DNA from: Nitrospira sp.
GTDB lineage: Bacteria > Nitrospirota > Nitrospiria > Nitrospirales > Nitrospiraceae
NCBI GenBank assembly: GCA_030123565.1
Contig: CP126122.1
Span: forward strand, 2,470,800-2,494,799
Reading direction: 5' to 3'
Length of the DNA stretch: 24,000 nt
The notes below the pieces were generated by a model, which was not told where the DNA came from, searched no databases, and saw nothing but the letters and a program-made list of their open reading frames with translations. Both the position numbers and the translations under genes were made by a program. Positions 10-11,053 of the stretch are shown piece after piece; positions within the stretch are counted from its first letter, which is position 1; every line of letters begins with the position of its first letter.

Positions 10-1719
10 ATGAACGACATCACCGACCGGCGACAGTTGGAAACCTTTCAAGCCGCACAACTGGCCGTCAGCCTGGCGCTCGATGACTCCCCTGCGCTCG
101 GTGATGCGCTGCCGAAAATTCTCCGCGCCTTATGCGAAGTCAACCGGTGGACGTTGGGGACGTTCTGGATGGTCAATCCCCAGGGAAAGGTACTCCAGTG
201 CGATACCCTCTGGCATCGACCGGATTTCCAGGCGGGAGAATTCATCCGGCAGTATCGTTCGCTTCAATTGAGCCCGGACATGGGACTGGCGGGACAGGCT
301 TGGAAAACGGGAGAGCCGGTTCTCCGTCCGGATATCCAACAGGATCCCGGCGTTCCCATGGCCCATGCCCTGAGCCGCCTCGGATTGCGAAGCGGCATCG
401 CCTTTCCGATCAGGAAAGGCAAAGTCATCATGGGCATCATGGAATTCCTCTCCTTGGACATCCTGCGGCCCAGCGCCGCCCAAGTCCACATGGTCGCCGA
501 ACTCGGTACGAGAGTCAGCCAATTCATTCAAGACAAGGATTTTGAACGGCAACTGCGTCAAGGGCAGAAGATGGAAGCCTTGGGACGAATGGCCGGAGGT
601 ATCGCACACGATTTCAACAACCTGCTGACCGTCATCAACAGCTGGAGCGAGATACTCCTGACGGAGTCCACGTTGGACCCTCGCACCAACCAGGGCCTGA
701 ATCAGATCAGGGAAGCGGGAAACAAGGCGGCGAGCCTCACCCGTCAACTCCTGGCCTTCAGCCGCCACCAACTGGTCAGACAACAGATTCTCAACCTGAA
801 CGACCGGGTCACGGACATCGTCGATCTGATGCGGCGGGTGATCGGAGAAGACATCAATCTCATCGTGACATTGGATCCCACCGTGGGACCGATTCACGCG
901 GACCCCGGTCAGATCGAGCAGGTGGTGATGAACCTGGTGGTGAATGCCCGCGATGCCATGCCGCAGGGCGGTCGTCTCGAGCTCGAGACCAGAGAACAGC
1001 AGATCACGCAATCCGACTCCTCGTGGCCCGATTCGATCAAGCCCGGCCCCTATGTGACCTTGGCCGTGCGCGATACAGGATGCGGCATGGATGCGGAGAC
1101 GCTGGCCCACGTCTTCGAGCCGTTTTTCACCACCAAGGATCGCGGCAAGGGTACCGGGCTGGGGCTTTCGACCGTCTATGGCATCGTCAAACAATCCGGA
1201 GGAACGATCGGGGTCGAAAGCGTACCGGGGCAAGGCACGACCTTTACGATCTATTTCCCGCGCACCGATGGACGGCAAGCCGCCCCCCTTCCATCCCCTC
1301 CCCAGCCGGATCGCCCGCAAGGGACGGAGACGATCTTGTTGGTCGAAGATGACGAGATGGTGCACAGCCTCGCTCACACCGTCTTAGCGGCCCAACAGTA
1401 CGCAGTCATGTCGGCGCGGAATGCTCAAGAGGCCCTGTCCATTGCGCGGACCCATGCCGGGCATATTGCACTCCTCGTGACCGATATGGTGATGCCGGGC
1501 ATGACCGGTTCCCAATTGGCCGTGCAGATGAAACAGTTACGGCCGGATATCAAGATCATCATGACGTCCGGTTATGCGGACCGGGGGAAGGAGTTTCTCG
1601 AATCCTTCGGACCGACCGCCGCCTTTTTGCAGAAACCCTATACTCCCGACTCACTCACGGGAAAGGTTCGGGAGATTCTCGACGCCCCTTCGCAACCATC
1701 TACGCCCGACCAGCCCTGA
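10..1719 (+). CDS. hybrid sensor histidine kinase (GAF - HisKA - HATPase_c - receiver)
   Basis: 569-aa ORF with H-box GGIAHDFNNLLTVI, N-box VVNARDAM, G1 DTGCGMD and G2 GTGLGLS. The C-terminal receiver reads LLVEDDE...LLVTDMVMPGMTG...FLQKPY. The N-terminal ~170 aa look like a GAF domain. Confidence 0.9.
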   Translation: MNDITDRRQLETFQAAQLAVSLALDDSPALGDALPKILRALCEVNRWTLGTFWMVNPQGKVLQCDTLWHRPDFQAGEFIRQYRSLQLSPDMGLAGQAWKTGEPVLRPDIQQDPGVPMAHALSRLGLRSGIAFPIRKGKVIMGIMEFLSLDILRPSAAQVHMVAELGTRVSQFIQDKDFERQLRQGQKMEALGRMAGGIAHDFNNLLTVINSWSEILLTESTLDPRTNQGLNQIREAGNKAASLTRQLLAFSRHQLVRQQILNLNDRVTDIVDLMRRVIGEDINLIVTLDPTVGPIHADPGQIEQVVMNLVVNARDAMPQGGRLELETREQQITQSDSSWPDSIKPGPYVTLAVRDTGCGMDAETLAHVFEPFFTTKDRGKGTGLGLSTVYGIVKQSGGTIGVESVPGQGTTFTIYFPRTDGRQAAPLPSPPQPDRPQGTETILLVEDDEMVHSLAHTVLAAQQYAVMSARNAQEALSIARTHAGHIALLVTDMVMPGMTGSQLAVQMKQLRPDIKIIMTSGYADRGKEFLESFGPTAAFLQKPYTPDSLTGKVREILDAPSQPSTPDQP

Positions 1720-2005: not shown

Positions 2006-2706
2006 CTTTCACTCTAGCCTTTCCTCTGGGCGGGACTTACAATTGACTGCTCCACTTGTAGGCACGAGTGGATAAATGCTTTCACTCTAGCCTTTCCTCT
2101 GGGCGGGACTTACAATCGATATGCGGCGCGGCATTGTTGAGCAGGTACATGCTTTCACTCTAGCCTTTCCTCTGGGCGGGACTTACAATGCGGTTACGAT
2201 AGGCATAGTCAGACCCTCCTCTTATTCTTTCACTCTAGCCTTTCCTCTGGGCGGGACTTACAATCGAAGAGTCCGTACTGAGAAGAATGCAACTCTACAC
2301 TTTCACTCTAGCCTTTCCTCTGGGCGGGACTTACAATTGTTCCTGCTGGTTTCTCTCATGCCGATCATGGCACCTTTCACTCTAGCCTTTCCTCTGGGCG
2401 GGACTTACAATTCCAGACCCGCACCATGACGGTCGTCAATGCGACGCTCTTTCACTCTAGCCTTTCCTCTGGGCGGGACTTACAATCCGAAGGCCGTTGC
2501 CAATGGTGTAGACAAATTGATGGCTTTCACTCTAGCCTTTCCTCTGGGCGGGACTTACAATCGAGATTTAAAATTGCGGCGGGAGGCGCGCAACACTTTC
2601 ACTCTAGCCTTTCCTCTGGGCGGGACTTACAATGAAGGCCAGAAACAGAACGTGCTGGCACAACGGCACTTTCACTCTAGCCTTTCCTCTGGGCGGGACT
2701 TACAAT
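2006..2706 (+). CRISPR. CRISPR array: 10 identical 38-bp repeats CTTTCACTCTAGCCTTTCCTCTGGGCGGGACTTACAAT and 9 unique spacers of 34-37 bp
   Basis: Repeat starts are 2006, 2079, 2152, 2227, 2300, 2374, 2449, 2524, 2596 and 2669. Spacer lengths are 35, 35, 37, 35, 36, 37, 37, 34 and 35. The + orientation is inferred from the anti-repeat at 8224-8236 and from the TACAAT at each repeat's 3' end. Confidence 0.97.
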
Positions 2707-2869
2707 CCCGCCCAGAAGGCCATGGAAGAATTAAGGTTTGACAGCCCCAAGCAGGGTGTTTCTTCGAAAAGTTTCTACCTGCATGCCAAGTGCCTTGGTA
2801 TGAGAAGTTTTCGAGTTCGACCACCTCAAAACCGTACTGCTCACCAATCGTTTCCAGCTCGCCTTGATT

Positions 2870-3484
2870 TTAGAATACGTCTCCGCAGAAGTTTCGGTAT
2901 TCGCACTGGGTGCACCGTGCTCGGACCGGAGTTGGATTAGGAAATCGCTGCATCATCACGAGGATGCGCACTTGTTTCATACAGGAATGAACTTGCTCTT
3001 TGAGCAATTCATTCAGTTCAACCTCGACAAGCTCCTCATTGTCACTAAGCATCACGAATCCAACCGAGCAGGGCCGCAGAAAATGCTGCTCTGCAAGCAG
3101 ACCATAGGCACAAAGTTGTAACTTCCAGTTCTCGGCCAACTTGCTGCCGCTGGCCTTGAATTCAACGACACCTATCCTGTCTGGAGATTCAAGAATCAGA
3201 TCAACCTTACCGATCATCCCTAACGACTCAGCGAAGATTTCCAAGCCGAAATGTCGAATCGCCTCCTGGAAACCATATCGGCTCAGCATCCGTCTCGGCT
3301 CCAAACGCTCGAATCGCTCCTCCTGCTGGTGACCGCGCTGCATAAGAAAGGTCGCCGGCGGACGCACTGGCATAACCCAGTGGTAATAGACGATGCGCGG
3401 GCAGTACAGAAACTGCTTCAGATCATTCACGCTCAACACTGGTTCAGATACCTGGACTACCGATTGGTCTGCAGCCAACGTCAT
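2870..3484 (-). CDS. cas4: Cas4 (RecB-like exonuclease with a 4-Cys Fe-S cluster)
   Basis: 204 aa with an N-terminal Cys (FLYCPRIVYY) and the nuclease motif GKVDLILE...VVEFKAS. The C-terminal CTQCEYRNFC supplies the remaining three Cys. It lies 3 nt downstream of cas2. Confidence 0.9.
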   Translation of the reverse strand: MTLAADQSVVQVSEPVLSVNDLKQFLYCPRIVYYHWVMPVRPPATFLMQRGHQQEERFERLEPRRMLSRYGFQEAIRHFGLEIFAESLGMIGKVDLILESPDRIGVVEFKASGSKLAENWKLQLCAYGLLAEQHFLRPCSVGFVMLSDNEELVEVELNELLKEQVHSCMKQVRILVMMQRFPNPTPVRARCTQCEYRNFCGDVF

Positions 3485-3487
3485 GAT

Positions 3488-3829
3488 CTAGAACCTTTGA
3501 ATCGTCGGTTTGTCTGCCCCCGGCTCCGGCCAAGTCCTGCGCGTGTCTTGGTCGCCCTCTTCCTCAGACTGTTGTTGGAACACCAGCCGCTTGTCCAAGT
3601 CATCACTGCTGATCGGCTGAATTAATATTCTTCCCGTGGTTGAGCCGAGCAATTCTTTTAAACGCAAAAAGAGTTCTCGCCTTCGTGTCGCATCAAGACG
3701 TCCTGAGAATGCGCTAAATTGAAAACGCTCCAGGCCAAAGTCCAGGCACGCATCGCTGATACGCTGCCGAACTCGATCGTTCACAATATCGTAGACCACA
3801 AGACACAATGTGCTGACTTCACTGCTCAT
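3488..3829 (-). CDS. cas2: Cas2
   Basis: 113 aa starting LVVYDIVNDRVRQRISDACLDFGLERFQFSAFSG, a typical Cas2 ferredoxin-like N-terminus with the catalytic Asp. It lies 6 nt downstream of cas1. Confidence 0.9.
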   Translation of the reverse strand: MSSEVSTLCLVVYDIVNDRVRQRISDACLDFGLERFQFSAFSGRLDATRRRELFLRLKELLGSTTGRILIQPISSDDLDKRLVFQQQSEEEGDQDTRRTWPEPGADKPTIQRF

Positions 3830-3835
3830 AGCTTC

Positions 3836-5071
3836 TTACCACTTGAATCGGAACGGCACATATCGGGTCTGTCGGTCGGTAAGAAACGACGCCACCTGAC
3901 GCGCCTGCATCTGAATGATCGAGCGAACTTGATAATCCGCACCCTTCCACCGTTCACGACTTTCGAGCCGCCGCAGCAGCCGGTCAACCAGTATTGATCG
4001 AGTATCGGCATCAAGGCCTTTGTTCGATCCATTCGCCGGCAGTTGAAGTTGTCCCAGGCGCAAAGCGGCAATAATCGTCCTATCGACCACCGGCGCTCGG
4101 AATTCCTCTGTAAGATCAAGCACAAGACTCGGCTTGCCGGGCCGGTCGGTATGGAGATATCCGGCAAATGGTTCAAGACCTGCGTTCTGAATGGCACCCC
4201 ACACTTGGCTATAGAGGACTCCATATCCATAGTTAAGCAGCGAGTTTACGAAATCACCGGCGCCGCGGTGGGCGCGGTGGGTAAACTCAGCCTGCTTTTC
4301 AATCAGCTGTGAAATGCCTGTCCAATAGACCTTGGCCGCCTGACCTTCCAACCCCATGATCATGGAACGGGCTTTCTCCAAATCCGACCACGGCCCGCGC
4401 AGAATATCCCGTCGCGCACGGAGAATCAGCGAGACCTTCTCACGGATTACCCTAAACAGTTCCGGCTGAGTCAATCGAAGATTCTTGACGCAATATTTGA
4501 GGAGCCGAGCCTGATTGAGCAACTTACCCGAGGCAATCGCACAGGCCAACATCAGCCCTCGTCCATTTCCCAGTGCTTCAAGTTGCGCCCGCCGAATTTG
4601 TATGCTCGCAGTCAACATCGGCGACGCTATTTGAGCGACAGGCCGTCCGTCATAACCAACGATCGACACGCGAACACCACGATCTGCCAAAGCTGCGACC
4701 GCATCGACAGAGACAGAAAGCCCTGAGGATGCAAGTTGCAGCTCATGGATATGATCGAACGGAACCTGCCAGATGACTTTGCCGTCTTTTTTCTTCAAGA
4801 CCAGCCGTTCGCTCTTCTTCCCCACATACCCGCCGAATCCCGACAGACTGACCGTGAGCCCCTCGGGACTCTGCACAACCGCGAGGCCCTCTTCAAGCAC
4901 ATGCTCCTGAACACCGGGCGGGAAAAAATCGAGCATGAAGTTGGGTAACTCTTCCTCACCGGTGTAGAGATTAATTTGACGAGGAACGGGAGGAAGGAGT
5001 TCAAGAACAGGGGCAGGAGAAACAGGTGATTTGACTGGGCCTTGCGGATCAGGAAGCGGTTCCGGGGTCAT
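3836..5071 (-). CDS. cas1: Cas1 integrase with a ~65-70-aa Pro-rich N-terminal extension
   Basis: 411 aa with GLEGQAAKVYW, HRGAGDFVNSLLNYGYGVLY and LHTDRPGKPSLVLDLTEEFRAPVVD (the Cas1 E/H/D core). The ATG at 5071 is preceded by GGGGAG 8 nt upstream. It overlaps the cas9 3' end by 23 nt. Confidence 0.92.
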   Translation of the reverse strand: MTPEPLPDPQGPVKSPVSPAPVLELLPPVPRQINLYTGEEELPNFMLDFFPPGVQEHVLEEGLAVVQSPEGLTVSLSGFGGYVGKKSERLVLKKKDGKVIWQVPFDHIHELQLASSGLSVSVDAVAALADRGVRVSIVGYDGRPVAQIASPMLTASIQIRRAQLEALGNGRGLMLACAIASGKLLNQARLLKYCVKNLRLTQPELFRVIREKVSLILRARRDILRGPWSDLEKARSMIMGLEGQAAKVYWTGISQLIEKQAEFTHRAHRGAGDFVNSLLNYGYGVLYSQVWGAIQNAGLEPFAGYLHTDRPGKPSLVLDLTEEFRAPVVDRTIIAALRLGQLQLPANGSNKGLDADTRSILVDRLLRRLESRERWKGADYQVRSIIQMQARQVASFLTDRQTRYVPFRFKW

Positions 5072-8060
5072 ACTGTTTCTCCCCGTTGATTGTTTCGAAG
5101 TACTTTACTAGGGCGGCCTTACGTAGCTTGATCTCACGGCCTGCTTTAACAGATTCTTCCGTCTCAACTTGCCTTTTCAAGTTCAGACGCCGTGCTAGCG
5201 CATCGGGGATGGCCTGTTCTGGCAATAACCTAACCTCTGCCTCGTCAAACTCCTTGACTCTGTAATAGCCGGACTTGTGGCCAGCCCTTTCATCCAGCCA
5301 GACAAAGTGGTGCCGGGGCCACGTTCCGACGACTCTTGCACCATCGGGCATTGGTGGTTCAAATCGCGGGACACCAAAGGACTGGAATAGTGCCGGGTAC
5401 CGAATCGACCACTTGAGATCCTTGATTGACTCATTTTGTTTCGTCCAGAACACTATAGCCTCTGAAGCAGGCTTCAATTCGACTTTTCGTGGAGGGCCGC
5501 CTTTAGGCTCAACACGGGCAAATGTCCCACCTTTGTTCTTGCTAACCTTGACGTGCCTTATGCCTGGAAACTCAGTTGTCAAAACTTCAGACGGAAGCGA
5601 TTGTCCTTTCTTTATAGCGAGAGATTTGGCAACAGCCCTAAATCTTCTGTCCAATTCCTCTGAAGCCATACGACTCTCAGAGGGGTGGCGTCGCTCATCT
5701 GGTCCTTTGCCACTGTAAACGAAAGCGGCCAGCGGCTCGTAAAGTGTCTTCCGCTTCTCATCAAGCGCAGCAGGGTCTTGAGAAAATGTCAGATCGGCAA
5801 ATTTCCTTTTCCAACTAATGGGATATCGACCCAACACCTTCACCAGCGGCCAAGTACGCCGCTCCATATACTCAACCCAATCCGGAGCAATTTCTGGCAC
5901 GGCAAGTCCGTCCTGTTCAACGGGCTTTCCATCCCATCGAGGGCGGATCGCACGATACCGGAAGATTGTTTCGCGCCAAGTATGGGGAGGGCATGCAGCA
6001 ATGAGAGCCGCATCCTGGGCATGGTTGAACAGGTCGTTGTTGTTCTTGAGAGGAAAATTGTTTGTGCCGTCCGCCTTCTTAAGCCATGATTTCCGTAGCT
6101 GGGTCGTTGTGCGTCCATCTATTCGCTGGACAAAGGAAGATCCAGATTCGTAAGTCACCTTTGGCACAGCAACACCGCGTTTTTTGAACAGTTCCCCCAG
6201 AGCCACCACGAACTGTCGCGGCCGGGCCCCAACATGCGCCAGCGGAGTTGGATTCTCGGGATAATCAGCACCCTGAGAAAGAAGCAGCATGCGTTTCCGA
6301 TCAGAGATGCGAACAGTTTTCTTCTTCCCATCCTCGCCTTCTACTTGAACCCCTTGAGTGGTCAATACGTCGATTCGTTGAGCGAGCCTCATCCATCTAC
6401 CAGTATCAGATCCCAACCATTCGTATGGAGTTTGGTCGCCTTTCTCCGCGTTACACAATCTACATACGGGAACCAGGTTGTCCCACACATCCGGTCCACC
6501 ACGGGATTGTGGGAAAATATGATCCTTGTCTTCAGCCGGCCGTGGACTCGTCAAGTCGCAATAGAGACACGTGCCATCGGTTTCATGCTTGAGTCTCTCC
6601 ATGAACGGTTCAGGCTTTCGGAGTTTCTGTTCTCCCTTGCGGGCCTGTTCCGTTTGAGGCTTCGGCACTTCCAGAGTAATCAACTGGATAGGTCCATATC
6701 GCCAAGCTTCGTCTTCCCGTTTCTCTGGTTTGAACAGGATTTGTTCCAACCGGTGCAACACACGCTTATCGTGTTGTTCACGGCAGGGATTCGGAGCCTT
6801 CCGCACCTTCACTCGATGCCACTCACCGACCACATCCTTCATCGTCCTGCCCTGTGCTGCCTCTACGAGATGTTGACGACACAAGCTGGCTCTCCCATCA
6901 GGGGTCTCATTCCAGAGCAGATCAGAAATCTGGCGCGCCATCGATTCCTGAGCGCCTAGCTTTTTGAGGTAAGATTGAATGGCTTTGAGCTTCGGAACTG
7001 TCAGTGAAACACCCTTACGAGACCGTTTCTGTTGCAAATTACTATGTTGAGATTCACTGCTCTGTCCTCGGAGGTCCCACCACTTTCTGAACACGGAGAA
7101 CTCTTCTAGTTTCAAAGGCCTAACCACGCGGCCTTCTCGAACTCGGAGATTCCGAACTGCTGCTTCATAGGCAATCTCTCGCACCTTACTTTTCCGAGGA
7201 GTTGGTTTCCCGCACCATGCACAACCGCTCTTGAGTCGATTTTCGAAACGGGCGGGGCGCAAGATTTTGTTCAAGAGACGGCAGAGTTCTCGTTGCCAGC
7301 GCTGAATAGTGTCTTTCGAGAGATTGATTGAATTACCGAACCCATCGATAACTGAACACAAGTCAGCCGCTTTTACATCTCTGTGTTCAGCCTTGCGTGG
7401 TTCAGACTCCCGATGAAGCGCCTTCTCAAGCTCGCCAAGAAGGTCGTCCGGGGAAATCCTTTTCTTCCCGCGCACGGAATTGTCCGGGTCCTGTTGGCGG
7501 CGCTGAATCTCAGACCGAATTTGCGAAGCCAGACTATCTGGGACTCTGGATGAAAGTAGAAAATCTTTCAGCTTCACATCCGTCATATTTGCCAACTCAA
7601 TAGCGTCCCACTTATATCCTCGTTTCCGGAAGATAAGCGTGAGGGCTCGCACAAACCCTTTCGAATCCACCTTTCCTTGCTTCGCCAGATCAATCCAGGA
7701 AGGGGCATCGGCTGGGTTCTTGCCTGAAATTTGAAAGATGCCCGGTTGAACTTGAAAACGTGGATCTTTCAGCACCACGTAAGGATCTGGAAGTCTACTG
7801 TCGTTTGGCAGCTTTTGCCGCAACACCCATGAGCGTAGCCGGGCAAGACGCATCTTTTTCGCGTTACGAGTCCTTCGGCCACGACGAAGCTGCCGACGTT
7901 GCTCTAGATCTGAACCATGAAAGTCAACGTAGGTTTCCGCGTGGAGTATCTGATTGCCTTGCACAACCGAAATACCACCGGCTGATTCGCCGAAATCAAT
8001 TCCTACACGAACGGTGGGCAGGAAGGAGTTGATTCGCTCTAGAAGCCTGGGCGTCAGCAA
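5049..8060 (-). CDS. cas9: Cas9 (compact, ~1,003 aa if translated from TTG 8060; the longest ORF extends to GTG 8168)
   Basis: RuvC-I VRVGIDFGESAGG, Arg-rich bridge helix RRQLRRGRRTRNAKKMRLARLRSW, RuvC-II LITLEVPK. HNH is DKDHIFPQSRGGPDVWDNLVPVCRLCNAEKG and RuvC-III is NHAQDAALIAA. The start is uncertain: the upstream 36 codons overlap an intrinsic terminator. Confidence 0.9.
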   Translation of the reverse strand: MLTPRLLERINSFLPTVRVGIDFGESAGGISVVQGNQILHAETYVDFHGSDLEQRRQLRRGRRTRNAKKMRLARLRSWVLRQKLPNDSRLPDPYVVLKDPRFQVQPGIFQISGKNPADAPSWIDLAKQGKVDSKGFVRALTLIFRKRGYKWDAIELANMTDVKLKDFLLSSRVPDSLASQIRSEIQRRQQDPDNSVRGKKRISPDDLLGELEKALHRESEPRKAEHRDVKAADLCSVIDGFGNSINLSKDTIQRWQRELCRLLNKILRPARFENRLKSGCAWCGKPTPRKSKVREIAYEAAVRNLRVREGRVVRPLKLEEFSVFRKWWDLRGQSSESQHSNLQQKRSRKGVSLTVPKLKAIQSYLKKLGAQESMARQISDLLWNETPDGRASLCRQHLVEAAQGRTMKDVVGEWHRVKVRKAPNPCREQHDKRVLHRLEQILFKPEKREDEAWRYGPIQLITLEVPKPQTEQARKGEQKLRKPEPFMERLKHETDGTCLYCDLTSPRPAEDKDHIFPQSRGGPDVWDNLVPVCRLCNAEKGDQTPYEWLGSDTGRWMRLAQRIDVLTTQGVQVEGEDGKKKTVRISDRKRMLLLSQGADYPENPTPLAHVGARPRQFVVALGELFKKRGVAVPKVTYESGSSFVQRIDGRTTTQLRKSWLKKADGTNNFPLKNNNDLFNHAQDAALIAACPPHTWRETIFRYRAIRPRWDGKPVEQDGLAVPEIAPDWVEYMERRTWPLVKVLGRYPISWKRKFADLTFSQDPAALDEKRKTLYEPLAAFVYSGKGPDERRHPSESRMASEELDRRFRAVAKSLAIKKGQSLPSEVLTTEFPGIRHVKVSKNKGGTFARVEPKGGPPRKVELKPASEAIVFWTKQNESIKDLKWSIRYPALFQSFGVPRFEPPMPDGARVVGTWPRHHFVWLDERAGHKSGYYRVKEFDEAEVRLLPEQAIPDALARRLNLKRQVETEESVKAGREIKLRKAALVKYFETINGEKQYDPGTAS

Positions 8061-8082
8061 AATGGCACCAGGGGGTGAGGAT

Positions 8083-8120
8083 AAAAAAGGTGGCGCTCCT
8101 CGCTCGTCGAGTGCGCCACC
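8083..8120 (-). terminator. intrinsic terminator (predicted tracrRNA 3' end)
   Basis: Minus strand reads GGTGGCGC-a-CTCG-acgag-CGAG-ga-GCGCCACC followed by TTTTTT (8088-8083). Confidence 0.65.
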
Positions 8121-8236
8121 AACCCTTGCCCTTCCGGGGTCCGAGTACCGGTCTTCGGGGCCACCCACACCCTGGTTCCGATGCTGGGTTACATCGGCGA
8201 GGACTGGAGTAGCGCCTGGGCTTCTTTCACTCTAGC
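8083..8236 (-). ncRNA. tracrRNA: predicted tracrRNA (~154 nt)
   Basis: The 5' end GCUAGAGUGAAAG (8236-8224) is the exact reverse complement of repeat nt 1-13. It is followed by AAG..., a CCGAUG/CAUCGG hairpin (8197-8178) and the terminator at 8120-8083. A promoter sits at the right distance upstream. Confidence 0.55.
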
Positions 8237-8243
8237 AATGATG

Positions 8244-8272
8244 GTTATACCTCGCACGATTTCCCTATTCAA
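8244..8272 (-). promoter_or_regulatory. sigma70-like promoter for the predicted tracrRNA
   Basis: Minus strand TTGAAT (8272-8267), 17 nt, then TATAAC (8249-8244). The anti-repeat begins 7 nt downstream of the -10 element. Confidence 0.5.
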
Positions 8273-8606: not shown

Positions 8607-9620
8607 TTACCGGCTATCGCTCCCGACGGCGGTCGGAGCGGCATCTTCTTTGGTCGGAAGCGCCGGAACTGCAAGGACCGGTGTGGCTGAGGCGGGATTC
8701 TGGGGAAAGGGGAGTTCCAGCAGCGCATAGGGATTCACCCGGGCGCCGTTCGCCTTCATTCCCCAGTGGAGATGGGGGCCGGTGGCGCGGCCTGTGGCAC
8801 CGACCTTGCCGATGACCTGGCCGGCCTTGATCAAGTCGCCCTCCTTGACCAGCACGTCTGAGAGGTGGAAATACATCGAGTAGAGGCCGAGGCCATGGTC
8901 CAGATAGACGCCCCTGCCGGAAAAGATATGGTCCACGGTGAGGCGGACGACCCCGTCGTTGCTGGCCATGACGGCCGTGCCGAGCGGCGCGCCGATATCT
9001 TCGCCGTTGTGGGGATTCCTGGCCTGGCCGTTCATGATGCGGACGCTGCCGAAGATGCCGGTGCGTTTTCCATGGACCGGTTCGATGAACCCCGCCTGCC
9101 ACAACCGCATGGCGGATTCTTCGGCCAAGGCCTTACGGACCTGCTCCTGCTCGGCCTTCCAGCGCGCCGCTGCCTTCTCATCGAGATCGACCTTGTCTTT
9201 CGGCAAGGTGAGATGTTCGACGGCGAATTTCTCCTTCGCCACGAAGACCTGATAGGTGAAGTGCCGCATCTGCTCGCCCAGTTGCGCATCGATCGTCAAT
9301 TCATGCGTGCCCGGCTCATCCTGCAGGTCGATCCCCAGCAACCCGATATACCCGGCTTCGCCGGCGGAAGGGTTCGGAAACAACGTGACGGTACGACCAA
9401 GGAATCGGCCCTTCACGGTGGTGGCGTCCCTGAGGTTCGGCACCGTGATGACGAGGACCTGCCCCTGTTTCCCGCTGAACCGTCCGTCGGCGCCTCGCTG
9501 CGTGGGTGCCGAGTTGGGGAACAGCTCGACCGGAAACACGCTGGCCAGCAGGACGATGGAAATGATAAAGAGGCGATCCAGCGACGACATGGTCTTGTCC
9601 AGCCCCGCAGCCCGTTTCAT
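8607..9620 (-). CDS. secreted M23/LytM-family peptidoglycan endopeptidase (catalytic motifs intact)
   Basis: 337 aa with a hydrophobic N-terminal signal-like segment, HNGEDIG (HxxxD) and GPHLHWG (HxH). Its ATG overlaps the pafA stop as ATGA (9617-9620). An alternative start lies at 9590. Confidence 0.88.
   Translation of the reverse strand: MKRAAGLDKTMSSLDRLFIISIVLLASVFPVELFPNSAPTQRGADGRFSGKQGQVLVITVPNLRDATTVKGRFLGRTVTLFPNPSAGEAGYIGLLGIDLQDEPGTHELTIDAQLGEQMRHFTYQVFVAKEKFAVEHLTLPKDKVDLDEKAAARWKAEQEQVRKALAEESAMRLWQAGFIEPVHGKRTGIFGSVRIMNGQARNPHNGEDIGAPLGTAVMASNDGVVRLTVDHIFSGRGVYLDHGLGLYSMYFHLSDVLVKEGDLIKAGQVIGKVGATGRATGPHLHWGMKANGARVNPYALLELPFPQNPASATPVLAVPALPTKEDAAPTAVGSDSR
8615..8765. repeat. 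right copy of the 151-bp direct repeat (it forms the 3' end of the intact M23 peptidase gene)
   Basis: 150/151 identity to 1817-1967. Confidence 0.9.
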
Positions 9621-10993
9621 CGATAAAATCGGACGCCGGAAACCTGTGCCAACAATTCTTCGACCCGCCGGTTCACTGCGCTGAACGGATCCATACAGAG
9701 GATCGTCTCTTCCCAGTACCCGTTCAACTTCAGATAGGTCCAGTCTACCGTATAGGAGCGGTTCTTGGCACGCGCAAATCGAATGAAGTCGCCGCGGACC
9801 TTTGCGCGGGTGGTCTGGGGCGGCACCGACATGGCCCGTTGCACGGCTTCTTCCTCCACCACCCGAACGGCCATCCCCCGATTCTCCATCAAATAATACA
9901 GTCCGCGGGTGCGTTTCACGTCATGAAATTGCAAATCCAACAGGAAGACCCTGGGATCATCCCAGCCGCAGTCTTTCTTGTCGATGTACGATTGGATGAG
10001 GTGCTTCTTCATCACCCAATCGACCTCGTGCACCAATTGCATCGGGTCCTCTTCGAGACGATCCAGTACCCAGACCCACTTGGTCAGGACGTCGTCCAGG
10101 ATCGGATCATGGTCCTGCGCCGCCAGAAATTCTTTCGCGCGCTTGACGTAGACCCGCTGGATTTCGATGGCGGTCATCTGCCGACCGTCGTCCAACTTTA
10201 CTTTTTTATTGAGTGTGGGGTCGCGGGAAATCTCGCGGATGGCCTTGACGGGATCTTCGAGTTCCATACCGGTGACGGAAAAACCTGCTTCGGCCATCGA
10301 GAGCACCAGGGTCGCGGTCCCGACCTTCAGATAGGTGGCATACTCCGACATGTTCGAGTCGCCCACGATGATGTGGAGCCGCCGGTATTTCTCCGCGTCC
10401 GCATGGGGTTCATCGCGGGTATTGATGATGCTCCGTGACGACGTAGTGGAGGACGAGGTCTTTTCATGGATATGTTGGGCGCGCTGCGAGATGAAGTATT
10501 GCGGCTTGCCCGAGACCTTCAACACCTTGCCGGCGCCGGAGTAGATTTGTCGCGTCACGAAAAACGGAATGAGCTGCTCGGTGACTTTCCAGAAATCGAC
10601 GTCCCGGCGCATGAGGTAGTTCTCATGGCAACCGTAGGTATTGCCGAGCGAGTCGGTGTTGTTCTTGAAAATATAGATTTCACCGGACAGGCCTTCTTCC
10701 CGCAGGCGCTCTTCGGCCGCCGGCAAACAGGCCTCCAGCAATCGCTCACCGGCCTTGTCGTGCACGACCAGATCGAGGATGTTGTCGCATTCCGGCGTGG
10801 AATACTCGGGGTGGCAGCCGGTGTCCTGGTAGAATCGCGCCCCGTTGACCAGGAATGCGTTGGACGGCCAACTGTTGGGAATCAGCCCCTCGAAGATATA
10901 GCCCAACACCTTCTCCATCGGGAGATAGATCTTCCCGTTCGGGGAGAAGATCAGGCCATATTCGTTTTCCAGGCCGAAAATTCGCTGTTGCAT
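9617..10993 (-). CDS. pafA: Pup/UBact-protein ligase PafA homolog
   Basis: MQQRIFGLENEYG start, HPEYSTPE, NTYGCHENYL and RDEPHADAEKYRRLHIIVGDSNM. It lacks the Dop-specific loop and lies downstream of prcA as in canonical clusters. The start at 10993 has GGAG 9 nt upstream; the ORF extends to 11053. Confidence 0.82.
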   Translation of the reverse strand: MQQRIFGLENEYGLIFSPNGKIYLPMEKVLGYIFEGLIPNSWPSNAFLVNGARFYQDTGCHPEYSTPECDNILDLVVHDKAGERLLEACLPAAEERLREEGLSGEIYIFKNNTDSLGNTYGCHENYLMRRDVDFWKVTEQLIPFFVTRQIYSGAGKVLKVSGKPQYFISQRAQHIHEKTSSSTTSSRSIINTRDEPHADAEKYRRLHIIVGDSNMSEYATYLKVGTATLVLSMAEAGFSVTGMELEDPVKAIREISRDPTLNKKVKLDDGRQMTAIEIQRVYVKRAKEFLAAQDHDPILDDVLTKWVWVLDRLEEDPMQLVHEVDWVMKKHLIQSYIDKKDCGWDDPRVFLLDLQFHDVKRTRGLYYLMENRGMAVRVVEEEAVQRAMSVPPQTTRAKVRGDFIRFARAKNRSYTVDWTYLKLNGYWEETILCMDPFSAVNRRVEELLAQVSGVRFYR

Positions 10994-11024
10994 GGGTCTG
11001 CGCTCCATCACGACCGTCTGTATC

Positions 11025-11053
11025 AGAATACACCGTGACAGGCGAGGCTTCAA
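11025..11053 (-). promoter_or_regulatory. possible internal promoter for pafA and the M23 peptidase gene
   Basis: Minus strand TTGAAG (11053-11048), 17 nt, then TATTCT (11030-11025), in the 170-nt prcA-pafA gap. Confidence 0.35.

What the first reader, a model, noticed from the sequence alone, without database searches (positions are those of the whole stretch)
8083..8272. Predicted tracrRNA with a minimal 13-nt anti-repeat placed exactly at a promoter +1, co-directional with and abutting cas9
The minus strand reads TTGAAT, then 17 nt, then TATAAC, then 7 nt, then GCTAGAGTGAAAG (8236-8224). That last element is the exact reverse complement of repeat nt 1-13 (CTTTCACTCTAGC). It is the only long repeat-derived match I found outside the array. 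A 13-mer match within a 6.6-kb island is not expected by chance. The topology fits type II: the repeat's first nucleotide pairs with the last anti-repeat nucleotide. An AAG-initiated segment then follows, reminiscent of the AAGG nexus start in known tracrRNAs. Next comes a 6-bp hairpin (CCGAUG/CAUCGG). A 12-bp GC-rich hairpin plus U6 ends the RNA at about 154 nt. Complementarity stops abruptly at the predicted transcription start, so the guide duplex would be only about 13 bp. That is much shorter than usual natural anti-repeats and probably too short for RNase III processing.
Basis: seen in the sequence. Interest (0 to 1): 0.8.

Follow-up and report, generated by a model that had tools for sequence, protein, structure and literature searches.

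The report
tracrRNA with 13-nt anti-repeat
This is the real, conserved helper RNA (tracrRNA) of a CRISPR-Cas9 system from the little-studied "Cas9c2 / type II-C2" group, but a 92%-identical RNA from a sister locus was shown in 2022 to guide DNA cutting with this same 13-base pairing, so it is a new member of a known kind.

Summary
CTTTCACTCTAGC (repeat nt 1-13) occurs once outside the array, at 8224-8236. It sits 7 nt downstream of TTGAAT-17-TATAAC, and a hairpin plus T6 ends at 8083, 23 nt before the cas9 TTG start (8060).

The tracrRNA reading is supported by three results:
- **One homolog per locus.** Every related sequence that contains the region upstream of cas9 (45 of 52) carries one homolog, always on the cas9 strand.
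- **Repeat and anti-repeat co-vary.** In 21 loci that also have an array, the 13 nt before AAGCCCAG co-vary with that locus's own repeat. There are 10 different 13-mers; contiguous pairing is 13 nt in 18 loci, 14 in 2, and 10 plus a bulge in 1.
- **Conserved promoter and fold.** TTGAC and TAnnnT boxes place the transcription start within about 1 nt of the anti-repeat. The scaffold fold has 24 compensatory pairs.

It is not new. The effector matches NCBIfam "Cas9d" and belongs with the Cas9c2-MG33 family (Aliaga Goltsman 2022). The published active sgRNA of MG33-34 is N20 + CUUUCACUCUAGC + GAAA + a tracr part 92% identical to this one.

How the crRNA matures on a 13-bp duplex remains open. Repeat 3' ends resemble -10 boxes (TACAAT), as in Neisseria type II-C, and a hairpin built from the last repeat closes the array.

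The parts
8267..8272 (-). -35 box of the tracrRNA promoter (TTGAAT)
   Evidence: Read. TTGAC is conserved at -36..-32 relative to anti-repeat nt 1 in 34 distinct homologous upstream regions that are otherwise unconserved.
8244..8249 (-). -10 box of the tracrRNA promoter (TATAAC), 17 nt after the -35 box and 7 nt before the anti-repeat
   Evidence: TAnnnT is conserved at -13..-8 in homologs (T 23/34, A 22/34, T 22/34). The window's version lacks the final T, so the scan missed it.
8224..8236 (-). Anti-repeat GCUAGAGUGAAAG, complementary to repeat nt 1-13; the predicted 5' end of the tracrRNA
   Evidence: co-variation with each locus's own repeat in 21 loci; co-fold. Identical to the anti-repeat of the published MG33-34 active sgRNA.
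8121..8223 (-). tracrRNA scaffold. Long-range helix GCCC (8221-8218) with GGGC (8131-8128). Helix 8216-8209 with 8164-8157. Hairpin CCGAUG/CAUCGG, 8197-8192 with 8183-8178. Hairpin CCGG/CCGG, 8151-8148 with 8137-8134. Conserved GAAGGGCAAGGG.
   Evidence: Alignment A2 of 27 loci, RNAalifold and pair counts: 87% of cells paired against 34-44% when partners are slid, and 24 pairs with compensatory changes. 92.4% identical to the MG33-34 sgRNA scaffold.
8083..8120 (-). Terminal GC-rich hairpin (8120-8113 with 8096-8089, inner CUCG/CGAG) plus T6 (8088-8083): the likely intrinsic terminator. Its loop (8107-8103) may form a pseudoknot with CUCGG (8145-8141).
   Evidence: Helix 9 shows compensatory changes at 6 of 8 pairs, and the pseudoknot pairs are 88-91% paired. 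The published active sgRNAs end before this hairpin, so it is dispensable in vitro.
5049..8060 (-). cas9 (1003 aa, TTG start): Cas9c2 / 'Cas9d'-type effector
   Evidence: NCBIfam NF049971 CRISPR_Cas9d, 598 bits against a cut-off of 375. Pfam HNH plus RRXRR. 100% identical to P0001; 69% to P0014, whose tracr differs by 1 nt from MG33-34.
3836..5071 (-). cas1
   Evidence: Pfam Cas_Cas1, E = 1e-63; TIGR00287.
3488..3829 (-). cas2
   Evidence: Pfam CRISPR_Cas2.
2870..3484 (-). cas4
   Evidence: Pfam Cas_Cas4; PADLOC Cas4_II, E = 1e-46.
2006..2706 (+). CRISPR array: 10 identical 38-nt repeats with 35-37-nt spacers. The crRNA sense is the + strand, convergent with the cas genes. Each repeat ends in TACAAT.
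   Evidence: Orientation follows from anti-repeat polarity and from the published sgRNA.
2707..2716 (+). Inverted copy (CCCGCCCAGA) of repeat nt 20-29, directly after the last repeat. It forms a 10-bp hairpin with 2688-2697, with loop ACUUACAAU.
   Evidence: Present in 17 of about 23 distinct arrays, where it co-varies with the locus's repeat. Most loci have a T-rich run after it; the window does not.

Best explanation
The minus strand from about 8236 to about 8083 encodes the tracrRNA of a type II CRISPR-Cas locus: tracrRNA, cas9, cas1, cas2, cas4, then the array. The effector belongs to the Cas9c2 / type II-C2 'MG33' family, which NCBIfam names Cas9d.

**Proposed mechanism.** A sigma-70-type promoter (TTGAAT-17-TATAAC) starts transcription at or within about 1 nt of G8236. 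The RNA therefore begins with the 13-nt anti-repeat GCUAGAGUGAAAG. This pairs with nt 1-13 (CUUUCACUCUAGC) of the repeat that follows each spacer in crRNAs read from the + strand of the array. The rest of the RNA folds into a conserved scaffold that Cas9 binds: a long-range GCCC/GGGC helix, three further helices, and the GAAGGGCAAGGG motif. A terminal hairpin plus U6 ends it 23 nt before the cas9 start codon.

**Status of each step.**
- *Shown here:* the sequence elements, their conservation, repeat/anti-repeat co-variation, and scaffold covariation.
- *Shown in the literature for a 92%-identical RNA:* an sgRNA with exactly this 13-bp duplex directs dsDNA cleavage (PAM nGG).
- *Inferred:* the transcript ends in this organism. 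Also inferred is that crRNA maturation does not need RNase III cleavage of a long duplex. Instead it may use the -10-like TACAAT at each repeat's 3' end, as in Neisseria meningitidis type II-C.
For: - The 13-mer is unique outside the array and far above chance.
- A homologous RNA gene is found once per locus, always on the cas9 strand just upstream of cas9. It is present in 45 of 52 sequences held; the rest lack the upstream region.
- In 21 loci with both array and tracr, the anti-repeat matches the locus's own repeat through 10 different 13-mers. Contiguous Watson-Crick pairing is 13 nt in 18 loci, 14 in 2, and 10 plus a bulge plus 6 in 1.
- -35 (TTGAC) and -10 (TAnnnT) boxes with a 17-nt spacer are conserved at fixed distance from the anti-repeat in 34 distinct sequences.
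- The consensus fold has 37 pairs, 87% paired against 34-44% for slid controls, 24 pairs with compensatory changes, and 0 of 500 shuffles reaching the observed score.
- The co-fold gives exactly the 13-bp duplex.
- The effector passes the NCBIfam Cas9d cut-off.
- PMC9755519, Supplementary Data File 3, lists the 'Active sgRNA' of MG33-34 (1010 aa, PAM nGG) with the 13-bp repeat:anti-repeat, and its tracr part is 92.4% identical to this RNA. The main text reports dsDNA cleavage by 16 Cas9d/Cas9c2 nucleases and says tracrRNA and array orientation were confirmed by cleavage.
- In NsCas9d, truncating the repeat:anti-repeat stem by 10 bp did not reduce cleavage (PMC12339737).
Against: - There are no expression data for this locus, so both RNA ends are inferred.
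- The window's -10 box is TATAAC, without the usually critical final T, and the generic scan did not flag it.
- There is no Rfam match, although Rfam has no model for this family.
- Only 24 kb of a 4.6-Mb contig could be searched for a second, longer anti-repeat.
- The published validation used an engineered single guide, not the natural two-RNA pair, and came from an ortholog whose protein is about 69% identical.
- Equating P0014/L050 with MG33-34 is an inference. It rests on equal protein length (1010 aa) and a tracr that differs by 1 nt.
- Many orthologous loci lack a U-tract after the terminal hairpin, so the 3' end may differ or read through into cas9.
Confidence: 0.92

Rival explanations
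1. The RNA is longer at its 5' end. Transcription starts further upstream, and the natural anti-repeat continues, imperfectly, beyond 13 nt.
For: The published MG33-31 sgRNA design included 4 extra upstream nucleotides (GCCC) paired to repeat nt 23-26 across a large internal loop, and it was active. In L002/L033 three G-U pairs and one A-U pair could extend the duplex to 17.
Against: In 18 of 21 loci nothing pairs beyond position 13, and the upstream sequence is unconserved apart from the promoter boxes. The -10 box ends 7 nt before the anti-repeat, so upstream bases would not be transcribed from that promoter. MG33-34 is active with 13 bp only.
Confidence: 0.06
2. It is not a separate small RNA. 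It is the 5' leader of the cas9 mRNA, and the anti-repeat-bearing RNA is either released from that leader or acts while attached to it.
For: The terminator ends only 23 nt before the cas9 TTG start, with no recognisable promoter or Shine-Dalgarno sequence in between. Many orthologs have the terminal hairpin without a U-tract, which suggests read-through. IscB omega-RNAs are also encoded directly 5' of their nuclease gene (general knowledge).
Against: The window has a strong hairpin plus T6. This reading does not conflict with tracrRNA function; it changes only the biogenesis. Published active guides end well before cas9.
Confidence: 0.15
3. The 13-mer is a decayed orphan repeat fragment or a chance match with no RNA function.
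For: It is short, and it lies in the same orientation as the repeats on the + strand.
Against: About 0.02 matches are expected by chance. The position is conserved in 45 sequences, the 13-mer co-varies with the repeats, it has a conserved promoter and a structured downstream RNA, and an ortholog has published activity.
Confidence: 0.01

Closest known systems
tracrRNA/sgRNA of Cas9c2-MG33-34 and MG33-31 (type II-C2; Aliaga Goltsman et al. 2022, Nat Commun 13:7602, PMC9755519)
   Same: The anti-repeat GCUAGAGUGAAAG and repeat start CUUUCACUCUAGC are the same. The scaffold is 92.4% (MG33-34) and 81% (MG33-31) identical. The effector has the same size class (about 1000 aa, HNH plus RRXRR) and the locus has cas1-cas2-cas4. 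L019 carries the MG33-31 tracr sequence itself. The L050 tracr differs from MG33-34 by 1 nt.
   Different: This is a different genome. The Cas9 is about 69% and 58% identical to the proteins of those loci. The natural terminal hairpin plus U6 is present here but absent from the engineered guides. The natural transcription start, the promoter and crRNA biogenesis were not addressed in the parts of the paper I read.
Compact Cas9d (type II-D) guide RNAs: MG34-1 (PDB 8zq9/9auf) and NsCas9d (PDB 9lgi; PMC12339737)
   Same: Both are long structured scaffolds with a pseudoknot-type architecture resembling the 5' part of the IscB omega-RNA. In both, the repeat:anti-repeat stem can be very short without loss of activity: NsCas9d tolerates removal of 10 of 19 bp. 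NCBIfam files this window's effector under 'Cas9d'.
   Different: No scaffold sequence similarity was seen when comparing by eye with the guides. The proteins are 740-760 aa and match only around the HNH domain (E about 1e-26). The natural NsCas9d duplex is 19 bp, against 13 bp here.
Neisseria meningitidis / Campylobacter jejuni type II-C dual RNA (Zhang et al. 2013; Dugar et al. 2013, PMC3656092; review PMC5965381)
   Same: The crRNAs are read from the strand opposite to the cas genes. The repeat ends in TACAAT, a -10-like hexamer. RNase III-independent crRNA production from repeat-embedded promoters is documented for N. meningitidis.
   Different: The Neisseria anti-repeat is much longer than 13 nt (my own knowledge, not checked here). 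No extended -10 (TG) motif precedes TACAAT here. The locus has cas4. The effector family and scaffold are unrelated. Promoter activity of these repeats is untested.
IscB omega-RNA
   Same: It is encoded immediately 5' of, and co-directional with, the nuclease gene. It is long and structured. The effector has a weak IscB and RRXRR signal.
   Different: In the omega-RNA the guide is fused to the RNA in cis. Here the guide comes in trans from a CRISPR array through a 13-bp duplex. There is no Rfam hit.

Membership tests
tracrRNA (type II CRISPR-Cas) | A segment complementary to the CRISPR repeat, with the polarity that pairs the repeat's spacer-proximal end to the anti-repeat's 3' end | tested here: met
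   13/13 Watson-Crick pairs with the correct polarity.
tracrRNA (type II CRISPR-Cas) | Encoded in the cas9 locus | tested here: met
   23 nt upstream of cas9 and 5.5 kb from the array.
tracrRNA (type II CRISPR-Cas) | The anti-repeat co-evolves with the repeat across orthologous loci | tested here: met
   10 different 13-mers, each matching its own locus's repeat, in 21 loci.
tracrRNA (type II CRISPR-Cas) | A structured 3' scaffold ending in a terminator | tested here: met
   Covariation-supported helices; hairpin plus T6.
tracrRNA (type II CRISPR-Cas) | Expressed as a small RNA and required, with crRNA, for Cas9 cleavage | not testable with these tools
   Shown only for a 92%-identical ortholog, and as an sgRNA (PMC9755519).
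tracrRNA (type II CRISPR-Cas) | Directs RNase III co-processing of pre-crRNA (canonical II-A pathway) | not testable with these tools
   The 13-bp duplex is short for RNase III. Type II-C precedents dispense with RNase III.
Cas9c2 / type II-C2, MG33 family (PMC9755519) | Effector of 900-1050 aa with RuvC and HNH domains, a Pfam RRXRR hit, and an adjacent array and tracrRNA | tested here: met
   1003 aa; HNH, HNH_4, HNH_5 and RRXRR. Family description.
Cas9c2 / type II-C2, MG33 family (PMC9755519) | Guide scaffold homologous to the active MG33 sgRNAs | tested here: met
   92.4% identity to MG33-34 and 81% to MG33-31.
Cas9c2 / type II-C2, MG33 family (PMC9755519) | Phylogenetic placement with the archaeal (ARMAN) Cas9 clade | not tested
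   No tree was built. Placement rests on identity to the proteins of loci that carry the MG33-31 and MG33-34 guide sequences.
Cas9d (NCBIfam NF049971) | Whole-protein score above the curated cut-off | tested here: met
   598.3 bits against a cut-off of 375, covering profile positions 2-969 of 986.
Canonical Cas9 (TIGR01865 cas_Csn1) | Whole-protein score above the curated cut-off | tested here: not met
   78 bits against a cut-off of 100, matching the HNH region only.
Rfam tracrRNA or any other Rfam family | A covariance-model hit at the gathering score | tested here: not met
   No hits in the window.
IscB omega-RNA | Guide segment fused in cis at the 5' end, with no CRISPR array | tested here: not met
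   An array of 10 repeats is present, and the RNA starts with an anti-repeat. IscB NCBIfam scores 48 bits against a cut-off of 175.

The most novel reading that the evidence does not exclude
In the II-C2 (Cas9c2) clade, the guide pair may be made entirely by transcription signals rather than by RNase III.

- A conserved promoter fixes the tracrRNA 5' end at the anti-repeat, which holds the duplex at 13 bp.
- Each repeat ends in a -10-like TAnAAT box that could launch crRNAs inside the next spacer.
- The array is closed by a hairpin made from the last repeat plus an inverted copy of the repeat's own middle, followed by a U-rich run in most loci.

This would explain how the clade can work in archaea that lack RNase III. 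It would also represent an intermediate between the cis-guided IscB omega-RNA and canonical dual-RNA Cas9.
Probability: 0.35. Interest if true: 0.5.

Novelty: new member of a known kind. Interest (0 to 1): 0.3.

Why it matters
For annotation, this locus is a complete type II system (tracrRNA, cas9, cas1, cas2, cas4, array). JGI labels its effector 'McrA', and homologs are labelled 'HNH endonuclease'. The conserved motif [13-nt anti-repeat]+AAGCCCAGRCGCC about 170 nt upstream of the gene is a simple marker for finding the guide RNA of this family.

For biology, the comparative data add three things to the published sgRNA designs. The 13-bp duplex is the natural, conserved state. It is set by a conserved promoter. 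The repeat is conserved only at its two ends: the pairing segment and a -10-like box. Together these make the question of RNase III-independent guide biogenesis in II-C2 systems directly testable.

For engineering, the finding gives another ortholog whose guide design is predictable from MG33-34. By analogy with MG33-34, it probably uses an nGG PAM, although this was not tested.

Tried and rejected
- **Rfam.** A scan of the whole window at gathering thresholds found nothing.
- **Generic promoter/terminator scan.** It missed both the promoter (TATAAC lacks the final T) and the terminal hairpin (internal loop), so it was uninformative.
- **RNAduplex scan.** Scanning the full repeat against the window gave only GC-driven, implausible long-range pairings. 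One hit fell inside the tracr scaffold. I rejected it because the tracr GCCC segment that appeared to pair with the repeat instead co-varies with GGGC inside the tracrRNA, and repeats of loci with GCCU variants carry no compensating change (checked by eye).
- **Extra pairing upstream of the anti-repeat.** None in 18 of 21 loci.
- **Spacer sharing between sister arrays.** I compared L019/L032, L021/L044 and L017/L041 to find which array end acquires spacers. They share no spacers, so polarity is undetermined.
- **-35 box inside the repeat.** Only 2-3 of 6 matches (TAGCCT), and no extended -10 TG, so the repeat-promoter idea rests on the -10-like hexamer alone.
- **PDB sequence search.** Only compact Cas9d and type II-C Cas9 structures matched, and only around the HNH domain. 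No close structure was found for this family.
- **Not done.** I built no covariance model, because nhmmer already found one strong hit per locus. I ran no structure prediction, because it would not bear on the RNA question.

Full report
**1. The observation**

The window carries, on the minus strand, a compact type II operon:
- a cas9-like gene at 8060-5049 (TTG start, 1003 aa; Pfam HNH families plus RRXRR)
- cas1 at 5071-3836
- cas2 at 3829-3488
- cas4 at 3484-2870

A CRISPR array of ten identical 38-nt repeats follows at 2006-2706, with 35-37-nt spacers. The repeat reads CTTTCACTCTAGCCTTTCCTCTGGGCGGGACTTACAAT on the + strand.

The 13-mer CTTTCACTCTAGC occurs once outside the array, at 8224-8236. 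About 0.02 matches at up to 1 mismatch are expected by chance in the whole window. No other repeat-derived word of 10 nt or more exists elsewhere on either strand.

- TTGAAT at 8272-8267
- a 17-nt spacer
- TATAAC at 8249-8244
- 7 nt, then G8236
- the CCGAUG/CAUCGG hairpin
- the GC-rich terminal hairpin
- T6 at 8088-8083

The RNA folds somewhat more stably than shuffled controls (z = -2.2). Co-folding with the repeat gives exactly the 13-bp duplex, about -19.9 kcal/mol, and leaves the scaffold intact.

**2. Comparative test**

The Cas9 has 110 homologs in the protein collection, variously labelled 'HNH endonuclease', 'RRXRR domain-containing' or 'McrA'. I fetched 49 loci from genome and metagenome collections and two more by exact look-up.

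*One homolog per locus.* A profile of the RNA finds one homolog per sequence, always on the cas9 strand and directly upstream of cas9. It is present in 45 of the 52 sequences held; the others start inside cas9 or are spurious. The conserved signature is [13 nt]+AAGCCCAGRCGCC, usually about 170 nt before the start codon.

*Repeat and anti-repeat co-vary.* In the 21 loci that hold both an array and this RNA, the 13 nt match the locus's own repeat. Ten different 13-mers occur, for example ACCACAGUGAAAG, UCAAUACUGAAAG, AUCACAAUGAAAG, GCAAGACUGAAAC and UGUUGAAUGAAAG. Contiguous Watson-Crick pairing is 13 nt in 18 loci, 14 in two, and 10 plus a one-base bulge plus 6 in one. Both the pairing and its length are therefore under selection.

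*Conserved promoter.* In 34 distinct upstream regions the only conserved columns are TTGAC at -36..-32 and TAnnnT at -13..-8 relative to anti-repeat nt 1, with a 17-nt spacer. That is a sigma-70-type promoter whose start site falls within about one base of the anti-repeat. It explains why complementarity stops there.

*Conserved fold.* The scaffold fold is supported by covariation:
- 37 pairs, 87% of cells paired, against 34-44% when partners are slid
- 24 pairs with changes on both sides
- none of 500 shuffles reaches the observed score

The helices are:
- a long-range GCCC/GGGC helix that closes the scaffold, switching to GCCU/AGGC and GCUC/GAGC in some loci
- a helix of G(G/A)C-GCNNN with its partner before GCCYCG
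- a CCGG/CCGG hairpin
- the terminal hairpin

A pseudoknot between the CUCGG loop and CCGAG in the terminal hairpin loop is 88-91% paired, with a few compensatory changes. I treat it as a candidate only.

**3. What it is in terms of known families**

NCBIfam places the protein in NF049971, 'type II CRISPR RNA-guided endonuclease Cas9d', at 598 bits against a cut-off of 375. It fails the canonical Cas9 model at 78 bits against 100. The PDB profile search finds only compact Cas9d and type II-C structures, and only around the HNH domain.

The decisive match is in the literature. Aliaga Goltsman et al. 2022 (PMC9755519) describe the 'Cas9c2-MG33' family (900-1050 aa, type II-C2, clustering with the two archaeal ARMAN Cas9s). 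They report dsDNA cleavage by 16 Cas9d/Cas9c2 nucleases and say tracrRNA and array orientation were confirmed by cleavage.

Their Supplementary Data File 3 lists the 'Active sgRNA' of MG33-34 (1010 aa, PAM nGG) as N20-CUUUCACUCUAGC-GAAA-GCUAGAGUGAAAGAAGCCCAGGCGCUGCUCCAG.... The tracr part is 92.4% identical (110 of 119 aligned positions) to the window's RNA, and MG33-31 is 81% identical.
- L019 carries the MG33-31 guide sequence itself.
- The L050 tracr differs from MG33-34 by one base. Its protein, P0014, has the same length of 1010 aa and is 69% identical to the window's Cas9.

For the related compact NsCas9d, removing 10 of 19 bp of the repeat:anti-repeat stem did not reduce cleavage (PMC12339737).

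**4. Mechanism, and what remains inferred**

*Shown here:*
- the sequence elements and their conservation
- repeat/anti-repeat co-variation
- the scaffold structure

*Shown elsewhere, for an ortholog and as an sgRNA:*
- guide function

*Inferred:*
- transcription from TTGAAT-17-TATAAC starting at about 8236. The window's -10 lacks the final T, and the generic scan did not report it.
- termination at the hairpin plus U6

The published guides stop before the terminal hairpin. That hairpin, and the candidate pseudoknot, are therefore not needed for cleavage in vitro. They probably serve termination or stability.

The terminator ends 23 nt before the cas9 start, with no promoter or Shine-Dalgarno sequence visible between them. 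Many orthologs also lack a U-tract. cas9 may therefore be expressed partly by read-through from the tracrRNA promoter.

**5. The RNase III question**

A 13-bp duplex whose tracr strand begins at the transcription start is a poor RNase III substrate. I could not test this.

Two observations suggest a transcription-based route.

*Repeat ends.* Across 21 distinct repeats, only the two ends are conserved. The 5' end is YUUUCA plus the pairing segment. The 3' hexamer is T[A/G]nAA[T/G], which reads TAnAAT (TACAAT, TATAAT, TAAAAT or TAGAAT) in 14 of 21. That is the pattern of a -10 box. N. meningitidis type II-C repeats also end in TACAAT (my own knowledge), and there repeat-embedded promoters make crRNAs independently of RNase III (review PMC5965381). 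Against this, there is no extended -10 TG and no convincing -35 box.

*Array end.* Directly after the last repeat in the crRNA sense (the cas4-proximal end), 17 of about 23 distinct arrays carry an inverted copy of their own repeat's middle. In the window this is 2707-2716, pairing with 2688-2697. The copy co-varies with that otherwise variable segment, and in most loci a T-rich run follows. This looks like a strand-specific terminator for crRNA-sense transcription and independently supports the array orientation. The window itself lacks the T-run, and a role in spacer integration is an alternative. No spacers are shared between sister arrays, so the acquisition polarity could not be settled.

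**6. Verdict**

It is a new member of a described and biochemically validated kind: the Cas9c2 / II-C2 MG33 guide RNA, with the effector named Cas9d by NCBIfam.

What the comparative analysis adds:
- the 13-bp duplex is natural and conserved
- it is set by a conserved promoter
- there is a testable proposal for RNase III-independent guide biogenesis

Interest is modest, at 0.3.

Noticed in passing
window 2688-2716 (+); also L002, L009, L019, L021, L027, L035, L039, L041, L044, L046 and others at the cas4-proximal array end: Directly after the last repeat there is an inverted copy of the repeat's own middle (window: CCCGCCCAGA). It forms a 9-16-bp hairpin with the last repeat and co-varies with the repeat in 17 of about 23 distinct arrays. 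In most loci (not the window) a T-rich run follows. It is a candidate strand-specific terminator for crRNA-sense transcription, or possibly an integration signal.
   Followed up: partly
window: the last 6 nt of each repeat (e.g. 2038-2043, 2701-2706): Repeats end in TACAAT. Across 21 distinct repeats of the family the 3' hexamer is T[A/G]nAA[T/G], and it reads TAnAAT in 14. This is -10-like, as in N. meningitidis type II-C repeat promoters, but there is no extended -10 and no clear -35 box.
   Followed up: partly
window 8060-8088 (-): Only 23 nt separate the tracrRNA U-tract from the cas9 TTG start, with no visible promoter or Shine-Dalgarno sequence. Many orthologs have the hairpin without a U-tract. 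cas9 may be expressed by read-through from the tracrRNA promoter, an arrangement reminiscent of IscB and its omega-RNA.
   Followed up: no
window 8141-8145 with 8103-8107 (-): Candidate pseudoknot between the conserved CUCGG loop and CCGAG in the loop of the terminal hairpin. It is 88-91% paired across 27 loci, with a few compensatory changes. It is dispensable in vitro, because the published guides lack the 3' partner.
   Followed up: partly
window 5049-8060 (-), P0001: Naming conflict. NCBIfam calls this protein Cas9d (type II-D). The paper that characterised its closest relatives calls the family Cas9c2 (type II-C2). JGI annotates it as McrA, and homologs are labelled HNH or RRXRR proteins.
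   Followed up: partly
L050 5855-5891: The locus whose tracr is 1 nt from MG33-34 shows only a single degenerate repeat (ATTGTAAGTCCCGCCCATCAGAAAGGCTAGCGTGAAC) after cas4, and no array within the 240 nt that remain on the contig.
   Followed up: no
L006 9430-9764, L038 8768-9695, L007 7181-7583, L013 7712-7966: In the more divergent loci the array lies upstream of cas9 and is inverted relative to it. In L006 and L038 the repeats carry an internal hairpin (CAGCCGNG...CNCGGCUG) in their 3' half instead of the terminal inverted half-repeat.
   Followed up: no
L041 106-350, L042 557-: Cas9 homologs at 35% identity have a tracr-like RNA in which only the first ~56 nt align. About 90 nt of extra sequence is inserted before the GAGGGCAAGAG motif.
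   Followed up: no
window 3836-5071 (-): The cas1 ORF is 411 aa. The Cas1 domain starts at residue 77, and the ORF overlaps the cas9 3' end by 23 nt. Either there is an N-terminal extension without a Pfam match or the true start is later.
   Followed up: no
window 8607-11053 (-) and 10-1719 (+): The CRISPR locus is flanked by an M23 peptidase gene, a Pup ligase (PafA-type) gene and a GAF-histidine kinase-receiver hybrid. The host therefore has a pupylation system. Relatives of the Cas9 come from Acidobacteriota, Binatia and Nitrospirota MAGs.
   Followed up: no
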